Positions 1 to 7,123 of a stretch of 64,000 nucleotides of DNA are shown here, piece by piece (within the stretch, counting starts at the first letter, position 1; each line of letters opens with the position of its first letter). The DNA lies in IMG/VR virus record IMGVR_UViG_3300028833_000001, positions 127,171 through 191,170 of that record; one strand, 5' to 3'. The translations under genes and the position numbers were made by a program. This stretch comes from a virus. Lineage: Duplodnaviria > Heunggongvirae > Uroviricota > Caudoviricetes. Under the pieces are notes generated by a model, which worked only from the letters and a program-made list of their open reading frames with translations, had not been told where the DNA came from and ran no database searches.

Positions 1-921
1 AGTGGCAAGTTTTCCCTCACTGTTAACAGAAACGGCAATCATAGAAAGACCATAGTCGTCAAGCGGACAATTCTTACCAACAATAGGCTTGCAATCCATA
101 AAATCATCCCTAAGGCAAAAATAAAACTGATTCAAACCATCGTTGGTGTATCTTTCAAACATATGACGGTCCTGCGTTATACACCACGATACATAACTAC
201 TGTATGCGCTGGCGTCATCAAATGAATCAATCTTAACTATATTGTACCTTCCTTCACCAGTCTCAAACTTGTTTAATTCCATCCTGCCATTCTTTTCGTT
301 CGCCTCCATCTCACCTCTGAATATGTTCAGCAGGCGTATCAACGACAAACCGTTTAGATTCCTGTCAAATTCATTTATGTGATTACCAGTCACAATAGCG
401 TTCAAAACACCGTTTACCAACTCAACAAAAACATTATGCCTGAATTTAATTGTCTCAATGTTCAGCCTCATAACACCCAATATGAACTTGGAACCCTTGT
501 CCGTCCTCAATATGGGACACTCCCTCCTTATTGTGTTGCGAACCAAATTGTCAGCTTCATCGTGACTCAGCCACAACTTAGACATCGCTAACTTTATAGC
601 AGCCGATATAGACTTTGCAGCCTGGTCCTCGTTCAACAATCTCCTGGTACATTCAGATACCATAGACATTATGTCTTTTCTGCTAATTTTTGTTTCGTTT
701 ACCGAAGATTCATTGTTGCAAGACAAATACCTGTTTAACCCCCTCATTAACTCCTCGGCAAAATAATAATTGGTCTCATAACCATCCCTGCTTCTCCATT
801 TATCGAAAATCTTTCTGAATTCCCTGCCTTCAATATCATTCGGTATGTCCAGGCCAAATTTATCAACTAGTTTCAATATTCCACGCTTGTTGCGCAATAT
901 GTTGTCAATAGTTATCCTCAT
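1..921 (-). CDS. hypothetical protein, C-terminus beyond window start; its N-terminal part resembles the middle of the 57380..60046 protein (YFCLRDDF...DDYGLSMIAVSVNSEG vs YICLRDDF...DEYALSMISVLVGTDG)
   Basis: Manual reverse-strand translation from ATG at 919-921 (MRITIDNILRNKRG...) runs without stops to position 1. It is absent from the ORF track only because it is truncated by the window edge. Confidence 0.5.
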   Translation of the reverse strand, partial: MRITIDNILRNKRGILKLVDKFGLDIPNDIEGREFRKIFDKWRSRDGYETNYYFAEELMRGLNRYLSCNNESSVNETKISRKDIMSMVSECTRRLLNEDQAAKSISAAIKLAMSKLWLSHDEADNLVRNTIRRECPILRTDKGSKFILGVMRLNIETIKFRHNVFVELVNGVLNAIVTGNHINEFDRNLNGLSLIRLLNIFRGEMEANEKNGRMELNKFETGEGRYNIVKIDSFDDASAYSSYVSWCITQDRHMFERYTNDGLNQFYFCLRDDFMDCKPIVGKNCPLDDYGLSMIAVSVNSEGKLAT

Positions 922-1411: not shown

Positions 1412-2075
1412 TCGATACGATATCAAACCTACACTATAATAATATTAATATGATATCATTTTGATATCATTCTAATATTAAAATTTCTACGCCAAATTCC
1501 GTTACTTAACGTGTTGATAGTTACTTGATTTTAATTTTATCCGCAACCTAAGAGAATGAGTTAGAATTGTTTATGACAAGTAATTGAAAATAACATCGTT
1601 ACATAACGAGTTGATATGAAATAAGTTTAGATTGGCTAATTTTAATTGGAATTTATTTAATTATGCGTTGTATACGGTTTTAATTAAAATTGGCGTTTGC
1701 TGGGACGAGAAAGATGAAGAGCAACCGTTTTTTTAATTTTAAATTATATTTATATATGAAGTGAAATTTATTTTTTGATTAAGTTTATTTTTTTTGTTAT
1801 TAACAAATGACAGTCAATTTAAATTTTGGCTGTCATTTCTTTTTATACGCGGCAAAACTTGAAATCTCATAGGGTCAAAAAACCGATTCGAACTGTCAGG
1901 TGTCAAAATTTTAATTTAAAATTTAATTTTTTTTTCAACAAATTTTAACATATTCGGCTCAGGCATTAATTAACTATGTTTTAATTAATTACAATTAAAA
2001 TTTTATATATTTGTAATTAATTAAAATTAAATGTATATTTATTAGAAATAAGGATAAATTTAAATTTAAGTTAGC

Positions 2076-2342
2076 ATGAAGAGGTTATATTTGGAGACCG
2101 AGTATGGTGTTAGGGATGCTCATGATTTATGGCGTGGTGTCATGGACGGATATGTAATGGGCATATTGAATGACATTGAATGTGGGGGAGGATTGACGTT
2201 TGACAAGATAGCCAGGATATACAGGCATTTCAACAGTATTGCTGAGGTTGATGAGCCGTTTGAATTGGTATGGTTCAGCAGGGAGGCGGTAAATGTTTTT
2301 TGGCCGAACGACAATTGGAGGGTTACATTTAAATTAAAATGA
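2076..2342 (+). CDS. hypothetical small protein in a GC-elevated segment
   Basis: 88-aa ORF with AAGGA 8 nt upstream. Its composition differs from the flanking AT-rich DNA. Confidence 0.3.
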   Translation: MKRLYLETEYGVRDAHDLWRGVMDGYVMGILNDIECGGGLTFDKIARIYRHFNSIAEVDEPFELVWFSREAVNVFWPNDNWRVTFKLK

Positions 2343-2439
2343 TATCAATAGAAATGGGTTAAAAAATTTTGGTATCATTTTTTTTTGGATAAAATTTTGT
2401 TTATTAAAAATTAGTTTGTAATATAGTGTAGGATTTAGG

Positions 2440-3100
2440 TTCTTTGATAGAAGACACGACACATGGCTCCTGTAGTTATAACGGAATAGAGCACCAATTT
2501 AAAATTTAATTTTAATTGGAGATTATGGTTCGAATCCATACGGGGGCACTGATAAAGATGGTTGACATAGACTGAATCAAGAAAAGAATAAATTTAGGAC
2601 AAAACAGAGAGCAGGACAGCTGCTTCTTTAAAAGTTTTCTTGAGCTGAAGGCTGTCGAATCTATGGAGACTTGGAATTTGCCCTGAAATGATATATGGGC
2701 GAACATCGCTGGTCGGGATAACGAGATTATCTCAATGTAATTGGAAAGGAAACATTCCAGCGAGAACCTGGCAAGGCCAGAGGCGATTATGCCGTATATA
2801 TGCTTCCTTTCTGCGCAATCTACTCGAAGCGCTTGTATAGTTTGAAGAGAGTTGGAATCTTGGGAGCCAAACATATCTAAAGACCGAGCGATGCAAGACG
2901 GAGCCGAAGCGATAAATTATATTGAAAGAGGCTGTCCGAGAAATATAGGCTGCTTGAACGGTGATGTAAAGTCACTAGTTCGGAAAAAACCAAAGCCGTG
3001 ATGAGCAGACCTTGTGGAAGACTAAAAACGGGGTTCCCGACCAGCAGGGTAAAGGCTTACGGATGTAGTTCTGGCAGAATTTAAATTGAGGTTAGGTTTA
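2440..3100 (+). ncRNA. candidate large structured non-coding RNA, GC-elevated and non-coding; the 5' part carries a tRNA-like T-arm (TATGG-TTCGAAT-CCATA, 2525-2541) followed by CGGGGGC-A
   Basis: About 45% GC against a ~30% background. The only ORF here (2512..2874 minus) has an implausible composition. There is an AGACUAAAAACGGGG motif at ~3018, and a strong intrinsic terminator follows at 3163-3200. Confidence 0.25.
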
Positions 3101-3162
3101 ATCCTCGGTGGAAAATTTAAATTGAACTTATATTTCTTTTCATAGTATACCTCCTTTCTTTG

Positions 3163-3200
3163 AAAACGGATGCCAGGGTAACCTCATCCGTTTTTTTTTA
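3163..3200 (+). terminator. rho-independent terminator (ACGGATG-loop-CATCCGT + T9), A-run upstream so potentially bidirectional
   Basis: AAAACGGATGCCAGGGTAACCTCATCCGTTTTTTTTT. Confidence 0.65.
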
Positions 3201-3358
3201 TATTAAAATTTAAATTATGATTACCATATTATGGCTGTGGGGTATATAATAAGATTTAAATTAAAATTTATATATGGAAAAAGAAAAGACTGGAATTTAA
3301 ATTTTCCAGTCTTCATTAGTGTGGTTATTGATGTATGTGTGTTTGTGGGTGTGGTTGT

Positions 3359-3772
3359 TTAGTTATTATCGGTTTGTAATCTTTGTGGATGTTCCCTGGG
3401 CCTTTCATTATGGTCATGATTATGTTGAGGTCCTGGTTGAGCATCGGTATTAGTTTCAGGTTCCGCTGCATACTTACCGAATTTATGGGCCTTGTCTATA
3501 TTCCCGCATCCTTGAAGGAGGACGAATATGGCTATGACGAATATAATGATATTCATCAAAGATGAAGTAAATGTAACGGTTGCTGAGACATAGAACAGGC
3601 AAACTGCCACGATAAACAACGACATCGATAATACACTATTTAAAAAATCCTTCATAACTCTATATGTTAACAACAATAAATAGACATTGGATGTGGAAAA
3701 TAAATTGGTGGTTATATACATTTTACTAATATATATGGGAATATTGAAGATATTTAAATTATGACGGCGCAA
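3359..3772 (-). CDS. membrane protein with a His-rich C-terminus
   Basis: 137 aa with two hydrophobic segments and a C-terminal PQHNHDHNERPREHPQ. Confidence 0.45.
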   Translation of the reverse strand: MRRHNLNIFNIPIYISKMYITTNLFSTSNVYLLLLTYRVMKDFLNSVLSMSLFIVAVCLFYVSATVTFTSSLMNIIIFVIAIFVLLQGCGNIDKAHKFGKYAAEPETNTDAQPGPQHNHDHNERPREHPQRLQTDNN

Positions 3773-3821
3773 CCAGGCTGAGGTCCATTGCTATATGATA
3801 TGTCCGCGCCAAAATAAATAA

Positions 3822-3876
3822 GGTACGCAAACGCGTACCCTTGTTTTAGAAAAACCCGCTTTACGGCGGGTTTTTT
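3822..3876. terminator. two adjacent hairpins: the GGTACGC-AAAC-GCGTACC palindrome, then A5-CCCGC..GCGGG-T7 (a bidirectional intrinsic terminator)
   Basis: aaggtacgcaaacgcgtacccttgtttt ... aaaaacccgctttacggcgggttttttt. Confidence 0.55.
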
Positions 3877-3920
3877 TGTAGGAAAATAATAATACTTTAA
3901 AAATTAAAATTCATTTAAAT

Positions 3921-4766: not shown

Positions 4767-5645
4767 TTAGTAAGCAATGGCGGGAGCAATCATTGTTTTA
4801 AGTTTCTCGATAGCACCGTTTCTGAGTTGTCTAACTCGTTCGGATGACAATCCAAGGATTTCGGCAATTTCTTTGTCCTTATACTCCTTATAGTAGTCTC
4901 CGATGCCAGCATACATTTTAATGATTGTAGCTTCACGTTCTGACAGCTCATTCATAGCTGAGGAAAGAATATATGACAGATTATCTTTGTCCATCACATC
5001 CACATAATCGTTATGCGAGGAAGAAACAATTGCAAATTCGGAAGAATCTTCCATAGTGTATTCATCATCATCGGGACTGCAAGAATCGTCAATATACTCA
5101 ATAGAAGCGCCATAGATGTCACCTGAGTTCTTTACATCAATCCCGTATTCTTCATCCAAAATGGCAACAACTTCGGATGCCAAAGGAAGACGATGATGTT
5201 CATTATAGAAGGCTTGTTCAATCTTTTTGATTTTTGGAGACACGCGGGCATTGTTTGTAGGGACAACCATCATATTCTCTTTGTTGAGAAACTGATTAAT
5301 GGAGCGTCTAATATAGTAATCGGCAATAGTAGTGAACCTATACCCCGTGGCAATGTCATAGGCATAGAAGGCTTCAATCGCGCCACAATTAGCCTCGCTG
5401 ATTAAGTCACCGAGAAGGTCATTCGTGGCATATCTTTTTGCGATAGCGAAGATGAATCGCTGATTACCCTCAATGATTTCATTTCTGATTTGGAGTTTTC
5501 TCTCATTGTCTTCACTTGCATTATACTCTTCAAAGAGTTCTTTCTCCCTTTCGGGAGTCATCACTTTGAGTTTATTGAGGTCATGCAGATAAGACTTCAT
5601 AATGTCAGTTCTTTCAATGAAATTCGTTCTTTTCTTAATGTCCAT
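4767..5645 (-). CDS. sigma-70 family RNA polymerase sigma factor with regions 2, 3 and 4
   Basis: Region 2: FIFAIAKRYATNDLLGDLISEANCGAIEAFYAYDIATGYRFTTIADYYIRRSI. Region 4 HTH: IAEILGLSSERVRQLRNGAIEKLK. The sigma-54-type motif lies 44 nt upstream. Confidence 0.85.
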   Translation of the reverse strand: MDIKKRTNFIERTDIMKSYLHDLNKLKVMTPEREKELFEEYNASEDNERKLQIRNEIIEGNQRFIFAIAKRYATNDLLGDLISEANCGAIEAFYAYDIATGYRFTTIADYYIRRSINQFLNKENMMVVPTNNARVSPKIKKIEQAFYNEHHRLPLASEVVAILDEEYGIDVKNSGDIYGASIEYIDDSCSPDDDEYTMEDSSEFAIVSSSHNDYVDVMDKDNLSYILSSAMNELSEREATIIKMYAGIGDYYKEYKDKEIAEILGLSSERVRQLRNGAIEKLKTMIAPAIAY

Positions 5646-5688: not shown

Positions 5689-5705
5689 AGCAAATACCGT
5701 GCCAA
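5689..5705 (-). promoter_or_regulatory. sigma-54-type -24/-12 promoter motif
   Basis: Minus-strand TTGGCACGGTATTTGCT, 44 nt upstream of the sigma-factor ATG at 5645. Confidence 0.5.
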
Positions 5706-5799
5706 AATTTACATTACGCCATAAACCAAAAAAAAACGCTATTAATTTGTAATTAACAATATAATAGCGCTCTACGAAAAAATAAATTAAAATTTGTCA

Positions 5800-6913: not shown

Positions 6914-7123
6914 ACAAATGATTTTATGTTAAACTTTAATTTAATATGTCAAAGAACTTTTTAATTGAGCAGCATAGCAGAGTCGAACTGCCGATTCAAC
7001 CTTGGAAGGGTTGCGTGTTACCACTACACTAATGCTGCTTGTACGCAAATGCGTACCCTACATTTCTGGTGCTTCCAGAGCCAAACCTTTTTAATTATAC
7101 TGATTTTTTTTCAAACAACCAAA

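What the first reader, a model, noticed from the sequence alone, without database searches (positions are those of the whole stretch)
2070..3200. GC-elevated non-coding island with a tRNA-like T-arm and a strong terminator: candidate large structured RNA
Bases 2440-3100 are ~45% GC in a ~30% GC genome and lack credible ORFs. The island begins with a canonical T-arm (TATGG/TTCGAAT/CCATA) followed by CGGGGGC-A, yet no complete cloverleaf can be drawn. It contains an AGACUAAAAACGGGG stretch reminiscent of a group I P7 region and ends at a textbook intrinsic terminator (3163-3200). Candidates are a large structured phage ncRNA, a ribozyme or intron remnant, or a tRNA-like element. A strong GGAGG plus 8-codon mini-ORF is encoded on the opposite strand at 3127-3150.
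Basis: partly seen in the sequence, partly recalled or inferred. Interest (0 to 1): 0.6.

Follow-up and report, generated by a model that had tools for sequence, protein, structure and literature searches.

The report
New large phage RNA beside tRNAs
The flagged stretch encodes a roughly 590-base, intricately folded non-coding RNA of a giant gut or rumen phage, made behind a crippled tRNA; it sits in phage tRNA clusters as the mysterious ROOL and GOLLD RNAs do, but matches neither.

Summary
The "group I/P7" and "no cloverleaf" readings are wrong.

- **tRNA-like element (2466-2548, +):** it scores 37.4 bits on Rfam tRNA. It derives from the syntenic phage tRNA-Arg(ACG), whose anticodon arm was replaced by a 26-nt AT hairpin.
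- **Structured RNA (2549-~3142):** a terminator follows at 3163-3200.
- **Relatives:** homologues occur in about 8 lineages of metagenomic phage contigs. Apart from L017/L018, which share the window's tRNA-like-plus-terminator layout, each starts directly after a tRNA. Where the 3' end is on the contig, it ends 3-17 nt before the next tRNA.
- **Structure:** covariation is strong. In the core, 59 pairs including a pseudoknot are 92.5% paired, against 36-45% in slid controls, and 36 pairs carry double changes.
- **Not coding:** there is no codon periodicity, indels break frame, and no ORF is conserved.
- **Not a known family:** no Rfam 15 family matches at E<=5-10, ROOL and GOLLD included. A family profile finds nothing in ROOL, GOLLD or OLE sequences.

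Best reading: a third, undescribed family of tRNA-island large RNAs, released by tRNA-processing enzymes. Its function is unknown.

The parts
2439..2449 (+). Conserved box GTTCTTTGATA, 17 nt upstream of the tRNA-like element. Candidate promoter element (inferred).
   Evidence: GTT(C/A)TTTGA(C/T)A is aligned about 17-24 nt upstream of the leading tRNA or tRNA-like element in the window, L017, L019, L032 and L042. It is not a canonical sigma-70 match.
2466..2548 (+). tRNA-like element. The acceptor, D and T arms are intact. The anticodon arm is replaced by a 26-nt AT hairpin (2493-2518). No CCA is encoded.
   Evidence: Rfam tRNA scores 37.4 bits against a gathering score of 29, but only with permissive filters. 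Default ARAGORN misses it. ARAGORN -i draws a cloverleaf with a 9-nt insert and anticodon AAA. Its closest relative is the syntenic tRNA-Arg(ACG) of L008-L010 and L006. L017/L018 keep it, with changes only in the hairpin loop, one base next to the anticodon stem and one T-loop base.
2549..2679 (+). 5' domain of the RNA, optional in the family. Outer helix 2560-2570/2661-2671, helix 2572-2574/2612-2614 and hairpin 2615-2621/2650-2656. The invariant 9-mers 2577-2585 (UCAAGAAAA) and 2635-2643 (UUUUCUUGA) are complementary.
   Evidence: RNAalifold and pair counts on 7 sequences give 29 pairs, 94.5% paired against 27-49% in slid controls, with 15 pairs changed on both sides. L042 lacks the domain, and L034 has a simple hairpin instead. 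Coordinates were checked.
2680..2937 (+). Universally conserved core: ten helices including a pseudoknot. Hairpin 2734-2738/2752-2756 has a loop (2743-2751, GGAAAGGAA) that pairs with 2804-2812 (UUCCUUUCU).
   Evidence: Nine sequences give 59 pairs, 92.5% paired against 36-45% in slid controls. 36 pairs change on both sides, and 0 of 500 shuffles reach this. The rival nested helix shows no covariation. Invariant G-U pairs fix the strand as +.
2684..2696 (+). Invariant 13-nt hairpin loop UGAAAUGAUAUAU. It contains the palindrome AUAUAU and is closed by a covarying stem, 2680-2683/2697-2700.
   Evidence: The loop is identical in all 9 sequences, while the stem changes GCCC/GGGC to CUCC/GGAG (L006) and GAGG/CCUC (L043). 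The same loop occurs in unrelated hairpins of other phage contigs.
2938..3142 (+). 3' domain, closed by long-range helix 2938-2949/3127-3138. It holds hairpin 2996-3006/3055-3062 (CCGUGAUGAGC...GCUUACGG) and a helix formed by two ATTTAAAT copies (3078-3086/3115-3123).
   Evidence: In 7 lineages the 12-13 nt after the invariant AAGAGGCUGUCC pair with the last nucleotides before the next tRNA or terminator. The sequences are entirely different between lineages. Alifold gives 31 compensatory pairs. Sub-types were compared, and coordinates were checked.
3013..3046 (+).
   Evidence: L017/L018 replace 30 nt with a GGAA-capped short stem. It is absent from the L019, L042 and L043 3' domains.
3149..3162 (+). 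Single-stranded linker ACCUCCUUUCUUUG between the RNA body and the terminator. It resembles the 3' tail of 16S rRNA.
   Evidence: CCUCCUUUCUUUGAAAACGG is conserved in L017, while the opposite-strand ATG is not. The 16S resemblance comes from my own knowledge and was not tested.
3163..3200 (+). Intrinsic terminator that ends the transcript in this lineage. A tRNA sits here in the other lineages whose 3' end is on the contig.
   Evidence: Terminal hairpin plus a run of nine U. L017 keeps it with loop changes only.

Best explanation
**What it is.** Bases 2466-3200 (+) are one non-coding transcription unit of a roughly 361-kb phage.

- It starts with a tRNA-shaped leader. This is a former tRNA-Arg(ACG) that kept its acceptor, D and T arms but lost a usable anticodon loop.
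- The leader is followed directly by a roughly 590-nt multi-domain, pseudoknotted RNA (2549-~3142).
- An intrinsic terminator closes the unit.

**How it relates to other sequences.** The RNA belongs to a family that I could not find described, 479-638 nt long, living inside phage tRNA arrays.

**How it most likely works (inferred, not shown).**
- The RNA is cut out of the primary transcript by the host's tRNA-processing enzymes.
- RNase Z-type cleavage after the discriminator base of the upstream tRNA or tRNA-like element makes its 5' end.
- In relatives, RNase P cleavage at the next tRNA makes its 3' end. In this window the terminator does that job.
- The tRNA-like element survives as a processing handle.

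**Proposed function, by analogy only.** The mature RNA would act in trans as a self-contained RNA (or RNP) particle during infection. ROOL and GOLLD, the other two large RNAs of phage tRNA islands, form RNA-only multimers. The invariant loop UGAAAUGAUAUAU is the best candidate contact point, either for self-association or for a partner. The biochemical function is unknown.

**My estimates.**

| Claim | Probability |
|---|---|
| Structured ncRNA | ~0.9 |
| tRNA-type processing | ~0.6 |
| Multimeric assembly | ~0.25 |
For: **Shown by tool results**
- **Conservation.** Window 2616-3113 is 73% identical to L006 and L011, with perfectly conserved blocks up to 76 nt. In the same pair, neighbouring proteins are 49-70% identical.
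- **Context.** In L006/L011, L019, L032, L042, L043 and L034/L041 the RNA starts directly after a tRNA, and the window and L017/L018 have the tRNA-like element there. Where the 3' end is on the contig (all of these except L032), the next tRNA follows within 3-17 nt. Surrounding protein contexts differ between lineages.
- **Core covariation.** 59 pairs including a pseudoknot are 92.5% paired, against 36-45% in slid controls. 36 pairs change on both sides.
- **5' domain covariation.** 15 of 29 pairs covary.
- **Closing helix.** It is rebuilt with different sequences in 7 lineages.
- **Strand.** Invariant G-U pairs fix the + strand.
- **Not coding.** Mismatches by codon position are 53/41/53, against 72/47/162 for the sigma gene. 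Indels are not multiples of three. Stops occur in all frames.
- **tRNA-like origin.** It derives from the syntenic tRNA-Arg(ACG). L017/L018 keep the same layout and terminator.
- **No known family.** No Rfam 15 family matches in any homologue. A family profile run against ROOL env-120, GOLLD env-38 and OLE gives no hit at E<=100. GenBank phages give no match.

**From the literature**
- ROOL and GOLLD sit in phage tRNA islands and form RNA-only cages (PMC5737381, PMC12286853, PMC12990946).
Against: - There is no expression or end-mapping data, so processing by RNase P and RNase Z is inferred from anatomy only.
- Only about 8 lineages are known, all metagenomic, so the covariation statistics rest on few independent events.
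- The RNA is accessory. It is absent at the syntenic site in L008-L010, and from the 10 kb around the sigma gene in more distant relatives.
- A remote common origin with ROOL or GOLLD cannot be excluded by sequence or covariance-model searches alone.
- The invariant loop also occurs in unrelated stand-alone hairpins. That argues for an outside partner rather than self-association.
- The literature library is incomplete, so a prior description under another name is possible.
Confidence: 0.78

Rival explanations
1. It is a very divergent member of ROOL or GOLLD, homologous but beyond the reach of the models.
For: The size class, the phage tRNA-island context and probably the rumen habitat are the same as for ROOL.
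Against: No hit to any Rfam family, ROOL and GOLLD included, at E<=5-10 in six divergent homologues, even with lax filters on a 621-nt query. The family profile finds nothing in ROOL env-120 or GOLLD env-38. None of the family's invariant motifs occurs in the published ROOL or GOLLD alignments.
Confidence: 0.07
2. It is only a cis-acting spacer that organises processing or stability of the tRNA-array transcript, with no trans function.
For: It lies directly behind a tRNA or tRNA-like element in every lineage, with a tRNA just downstream in most, and no partner gene is conserved nearby.
Against: The window and L017 lineage has lost every working tRNA of the array. It still keeps the RNA, a tRNA-shaped handle and its own terminator. 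A spacer would not need about 480 nt of invariant loops and a pseudoknot.
Confidence: 0.1
3. It is a ribozyme or intron remnant (group I or II), or a tRNA-directed catalytic RNA such as an RNase P-like RNA.
For: It is large, pseudoknotted and tRNA-associated. Short resemblances such as GGAAAG and GGCUUA recall RNase P motifs, but that comparison is from memory only.
Against: No group I, group II, RNase P or tmRNA model matches. The "P7-like" stretch is dispensable. No flanking exon is interrupted, because the upstream tRNA-like element is complete before the RNA begins.
Confidence: 0.04
4. It is a protein-coding gene or pseudogene, possibly read in an alternative genetic code.
For: A 120-aa ORF lies on the minus strand of the window. 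A 131-aa ORF lies on the sense strand of L019. Some relatives carry an amber-suppressor tRNA.
Against: The ORFs fall in different frames in different lineages. All three stop codons occur in every + frame, and the best minus frame needs both TAG and TAA to be read through. There is no 3-periodicity, 1-5-nt indels fall in conserved blocks, and compensatory base-pair changes run throughout.
Confidence: 0.01

Closest known systems
ROOL RNA (Rumen-Originating, Ornate, Large; Weinberg et al. 2017, PMC5737381)
   Same: About 0.5-0.6 kb, with many helices and pseudoknots. Encoded by phages and prophages, often next to tRNA islands, with no conserved protein partner. Probably the same habitat: the contig names STEW19, TONG22 and SHIW14 suggest ruminant metagenomes, which is my inference.
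   Different: No detectable sequence or covariance-model similarity. ROOL is known from Firmicutes prophages, plasmids and chromosomes. This family was found only on large metagenomic phage contigs and not in 185,579 GTDB genomes with two conserved patterns. Whether it multimerises is unknown.
GOLLD RNA (Weinberg et al. 2009; PMC12286853)
   Same: Sits in phage tRNA arrays and is modular, with a conserved part plus variable or optional domains. tRNAs directly abut it.
   Different: GOLLD is larger (about 700-830 nt). Its conserved part is the 3' domain, whereas here the centre is conserved and both ends vary. No model or profile similarity.
tRNA-like processing handles such as mascRNA at the 3' end of MALAT1 / MEN-beta
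   Same: A tRNA-shaped element that does not decode is kept next to a long ncRNA. It can recruit RNase P or RNase Z to define that RNA's end (inferred here).
   Different: Those are eukaryotic and sit at the 3' end of the long RNA. Here the handle is at the 5' end, is bacterial or phage, and visibly descends from a phage tRNA-Arg gene. No cleavage data exist.
Phage tRNA-Arg(ACG) genes of the same phage group (L010 7011-7084, L006 14806-14878)
   Same: The acceptor, D and T arms of the window's element align with them base for base, at the same genomic position downstream of the 88-aa gene.
   Different: The 17-nt anticodon stem-loop is replaced by a 26-nt AT-rich hairpin. That hairpin carries the genome's ATTTAAAT-type palindrome, and there is no 7-nt anticodon loop.

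Membership tests
ROOL RNA | Match to the Rfam ROOL covariance model at or above its gathering score | tested here: not met
   No ROOL hit even at E<=10 on the 621-nt RNA alone, nor at E<=5-10 in L006, L019, L032, L034 and L042. The family profile finds nothing in ROOL env-120.
ROOL RNA | Large (about 580 nt) RNA in phages or prophages near tRNA genes | tested here: met
   479-638 nt, and directly behind a tRNA or tRNA-like element in every lineage.
ROOL RNA | Homo-oligomeric nanocage (hexamer or octamer) | not testable with these tools
   Needs SEC, native gels or cryo-EM of the transcript.
GOLLD RNA | Match to the Rfam GOLLD covariance model; conserved 3' domain | tested here: not met
   No GOLLD hit and no profile hit to GOLLD env-38. 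In this family the 3' domain is the variable part.
tRNA (Rfam tRNA family), for 2466-2548 | Covariance-model score above the gathering score (29 bits) | tested here: met
   37.4 bits, E=8.5e-06, model positions 1-71. Not found with default filters.
tRNA (functional decoder), for 2466-2548 | 5-bp anticodon stem with a 7-nt loop (U33, purine 37) and a conserved anticodon | tested here: not met
   12 nt stand in place of 3 in the loop. It folds as a long AT hairpin. Default ARAGORN finds nothing. The forced reading gives anticodon AAA plus a 9-nt insert. L017 changes the loop so that position 37 would be U.
Group I intron | Match to the Rfam group I model; conserved P7/P3 core with a G-binding site | tested here: not met
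   No hit at E<=10. The proposed P7 stretch is deleted in L017/L018.
tmRNA (standard or two-piece) | tRNA-like domain split around a tag reading frame; detected by ARAGORN or Rfam | tested here: not met
   ARAGORN -m finds nothing in 2400-2620, and Rfam gives no tmRNA hit in the window region. Both acceptor strands lie within 2466-2548.
Bacterial RNase P RNA | Match to the Rfam RNase P models (conserved P4 core) | tested here: not met
   No RNase P family among hits at E<=10.
Intrinsic (Rho-independent) terminator, 3163-3200 | Stable GC-containing hairpin followed immediately by a U tract | tested here: met
   10-bp stem plus a run of nine U, the first four of which form the stem's 3' end. The stem is conserved in L017 and the loop differs.

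The most novel reading that the evidence does not exclude
This would be a third, evolutionarily independent family of giant phage tRNA-island RNAs. Like ROOL and GOLLD it would build an RNA-only multimeric particle, or alternatively act on the tRNA or translation machinery. It would be matured purely by tRNA-processing enzymes. The window's lineage would then show a tRNA gene being converted into a dedicated processing handle for the RNA.
Probability: 0.3. Interest if true: 0.85.

Novelty: new variant of a known kind. Interest (0 to 1): 0.7.

Why it matters
- **A rare class of RNA.** Only a handful of bacterial or phage non-coding RNAs above 400 nt lack a known function. Two of them, ROOL and GOLLD, share exactly this genomic niche, and both were recently shown to form RNA-only nanocages.
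- **A recurring niche.** A third, unrelated family in the same place would show that phage tRNA islands repeatedly evolve or recruit large ornate RNAs. This gives a new, compact core of about 480 nt for structural and functional work.
- **A direct functional test.** The window lineage is a natural experiment. The tRNAs are gone, while the RNA and a tRNA-shaped stub remain. So the idea that these RNAs are matured by RNase P and RNase Z, and matter independently of tRNA supply, can be tested directly.

Tried and rejected
- **Rfam.** The gathering-threshold scan of the whole window found only tRNA-Gly at 6968-7038. E-value scans of the region, and of six homologous loci, found no family for the island.
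- **GenBank phage records.** blastn found no match for three versions of the RNA or for 25 kb of the window.
- **IMG/VR.** The 233-aa neighbour, the T-arm/acceptor 22-mer, the "P7" 21-mer and two other blocks gave nothing. The last scan gave only chance hits beyond L042 and L043.
- **GTDB genomes.** Two conserved patterns gave nothing.
- **More distant sigma-factor relatives (46-51% identity).** No RNA within 10 kb.
- **Coding reading.** Rejected.
- **Nested alternative to the pseudoknot (2807-2812/2846-2851).** No covariation.
- **K-turn or C/D-like, and GAAA-receptor, readings of the invariant loop.** Considered by eye only and left unresolved.
- **A sigma-70 or Bacteroidetes-type promoter upstream.** Only a conserved box could be shown, with inconsistent spacing to a second TTTG.
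- **Literature.** I found no description of this family. Fremin et al. 2023 candidates are at most 151 nt.
Full report
**1. What the window is**

The window carries phage-type genes. These include a sigma-70 family factor (4767-5645, minus strand; PHROG "RNA polymerase sigma factor") and a ClpB-like ATPase. The sigma protein is found on a contig of 361,445 bp. An identical 18-kb contig, L001, covers the region at 100% identity. No GenBank phage resembles it at the DNA level. Overall GC is 0.337.

**2. Checking the observation**

- **GC content.** GC is 0.44-0.46 across 2601-3100, against 0.17-0.29 in the flanking AT-rich spacers. Coding parts of this genome also reach 0.40-0.44, so the "island" stands out mainly against intergenic DNA.
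- **Reading frames.** Every + frame contains many TAA, TAG and TGA codons.
- **T-arm and acceptor.** The T-arm (2524-2540) and the 3' acceptor strand (2541-2547) are as described.
- **Cloverleaf.** The statement that no cloverleaf can be drawn is wrong.
  - With permissive filters the Rfam tRNA model scores 37.4 bits (gathering score 29) over 2466-2548, with 12 nt in place of 3 in the anticodon loop.
  - ARAGORN in intron mode draws a complete cloverleaf with a 9-nt insert.
  - Default ARAGORN and the default Rfam scan miss it.
- **Terminator.** The hairpin plus a run of nine U at 3163-3200 is real. A relative keeps it.
- **Start of the interval.** 2076-2342 is a genuine 88-aa gene, 49% identical to its homologue in L006.

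**3. Relatives**

Homologues of the sigma factor led to syntenic contigs, and pattern scans of JGI metagenomes and IMG/VR added unrelated contexts.

| Loci | How found | Layout around the RNA |
|---|---|---|
| L017/L018 | sigma 80% identical | same as the window: tRNA-like element, RNA, terminator |
| L006/L011 | sigma about 70% identical | RNA 73% identical to the window; between tRNA-Glu(UUC) and tRNA-Gly(GCC) inside a tRNA array |
| L008-L010 | sigma 62% identical | RNA absent; a tRNA-Arg(ACG) sits at the syntenic site |
| L019 | JGI pattern scan | tRNA-Ile(UAU), RNA, then tRNA-Gly(UCC) cut by the contig end |
| L032 | JGI pattern scan | after tRNA-Ile(UAU); its 3' end runs off the contig |
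| L042 | IMG/VR pattern scan | exactly between tRNA-Met and tRNA-Leu; lacks the 5' domain |
| L043 | IMG/VR pattern scan | between tRNA-Leu(UAG) and tRNA-Leu(GAG) |
| L034/L041 | IMG/VR pattern scan | between tRNA-Glu and tRNA-Ala |

- Lengths are 479-638 nt and GC is 0.40-0.48.
- GTDB genomes, GenBank phages and more distant sigma relatives gave nothing.

**4. It is a structured RNA, not a gene**

- **Conservation pattern.** Invariant blocks alternate with variable segments. One 76-nt block is identical between the window and L006.
- **Whole RNA.** RNAalifold on three lineages gave 134 pairs, 31 of them with compensatory change.
- **Universal core (window 2680-2937; nine sequences).**
  - A model of ten helices including a pseudoknot has 92.5% of cells paired, against 36-45% when partners are slid by 1-3 columns.
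  - 36 pairs change on both sides, and 0 of 500 shuffles reach the observed values.
  - The pseudoknot pairs the loop GGAAAGGAA (2743-2751) with UUCCUUUCU (2804-2812). L043 supports it with GGAACUAGU/ACUAGUUCU. It beats a nested alternative that never covaries.
- **5' domain.** It has 29 pairs, of which 15 covary.
- **3' domain.**
  - It exists in at least two sequence types.
  - It is always closed by a helix between the nucleotides right after the invariant AAGAGGCUGUCC and the last nucleotides of the RNA.
  - That helix is rebuilt with unrelated sequences in seven lineages.
- **Strand.** Invariant G-U pairs fix the + strand.
- **Substitutions and indels.** Substitutions show no codon periodicity (53/41/53, against 72/47/162 in the sigma gene). 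Indels are 1-23 nt and mostly not multiples of three.
- **ORFs.** ORFs differ in frame and strand between lineages.

**5. The tRNA-like element**

- Outside the anticodon arm, its best match among 128 tRNAs of all loci is the tRNA-Arg(ACG) at the same position in L008-L010. L006 also has it.
- The anticodon stem-loop has been replaced by a 26-nt AT hairpin that includes the local ATTTAAAT-type palindrome.
- L017 differs only in the hairpin loop, one base next to the anticodon stem and one T-loop base.
- No CCA is encoded here or in the relatives' tRNAs.
- I infer that it no longer decodes but is kept as an acceptor/T-arm substrate for RNase P and RNase Z.
  - In relatives, real tRNAs bracket the RNA. 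The closing helix ends 3-17 nt before the next tRNA's first base.
  - tRNA processing would therefore release the RNA precisely.
  - In the window a terminator replaces the downstream tRNA.
- A conserved box GTT(C/A)TTTGA(C/T)A about 17-24 nt upstream of the leading tRNA or tRNA-like element in five loci may be a promoter element. No canonical sigma-70 site is there.

**6. Comparison with known families**

- ROOL and GOLLD are the two described large RNAs of phage tRNA islands (PMC5737381; PMC12286853; PMC12990946).
- Both are in Rfam, yet no Rfam 15 family reaches E<=5-10 on any version of this RNA.
- A profile of the family finds nothing in ROOL env-120, GOLLD env-38 or OLE at E<=100 with filters off (sequences; result).
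- The family's invariant motifs do not occur in the published ROOL and GOLLD alignments.
- So it works like a ROOL or GOLLD-type RNA in context and scale, but fails their membership test.
- I found no paper describing it. The library is incomplete, so I rate prior description at roughly 10-15%.

**7. Verdict**

This is a real, conserved, pseudoknotted phage ncRNA of about 0.6 kb behind a tRNA-derived handle. It is most likely a new family of the tRNA-island large-RNA kind. Its function is unknown, and its processing and any multimerisation are inferred.

Noticed in passing
window 1817-3913: The palindrome ATTTAAAT occurs 10 times in 2.1 kb, and only 12 times in the whole 64 kb. 500 dinucleotide shuffles of the region give 0.47 +/- 0.69, with a maximum of 4. 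Copies sit in the loops of two terminator-like hairpins (1805-1838, 3285-3314), at both ends of the 88-aa gene, twice inside the RNA where they pair with each other, and degenerately in the tRNA-like anticodon arm. In L006 the two RNA copies are replaced by other, still complementary sequences. This could be a protein-binding site or a regulatory hub.
   Followed up: partly
L006 14452-14625 (-); L033 8075-8218 (+); L034 5416-5571 (-): Three tRNA genes in phage arrays carry inserts of about 75-115 nt in the anticodon loop. The L006 and L033 inserts hold their own T-arm-like hairpin, and in L033 also an acceptor-like stem. ARAGORN does not call these genes. Rfam gives a 47-bit tRNA hit over 156 nt for L034. 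The inserts are too short for group I introns, so this may be an undescribed kind of tRNA insert.
   Followed up: partly
L036 ~6958-6994; L039 ~206-242 and ~5705-5741; L040 2425-2451; L033 7818-7834 / L038: The RNA's invariant loop UGAAAUGAUAUAU also occurs outside the family. It is capped by unrelated perfect stems (AAAAGCUCCC/GGGAGCUUUU, GACACC/GGUGUC), after genes or inside another tRNA array. It looks like an independent recognition module, and its partner is unknown.
   Followed up: partly
window 3149-3162 (+): The linker ACCUCCUUUCUUUG between the RNA and its terminator matches the 3' tail (anti-Shine-Dalgarno region) of 16S rRNA, as far as I remember that sequence. CCUCCUUUCUUUGAAAACGG is conserved in L017, although the opposite-strand mini-ORF start is lost there. 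It could simply be the relic of an opposite-strand ribosome-binding site.
   Followed up: partly
L042 488-559; L043 4242-4311: The tRNA arrays that carry the RNA in IMG/VR contigs include a tRNA with anticodon CUA, which ARAGORN labels "Pyl". That is an amber suppressor and suggests TAG recoding in those phages.
   Followed up: no
window 6967-7038 (-): tRNA-Gly(UCC) is the only standard tRNA in the window. It keeps its position upstream of the sigma gene in every syntenic contig that reaches that position: L001, L006, L008, L011, L016 and L017.
   Followed up: no
L034 5583-5965 (-) and L041 4341-4723 (-): ARAGORN calls a "tmRNA" with tag peptide GQAYC* that overlaps a tRNA-Lys(UUU) gene. Rfam tmRNA gives only 16 bits there. 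It is probably a false call caused by odd tRNA-like sequence in the array.
   Followed up: no
window 25-141 and L001 14885-15001 (about 1.9 kb left of the window start): A 117-nt stretch is repeated at 92% identity in the same orientation on the phage contig.
   Followed up: no
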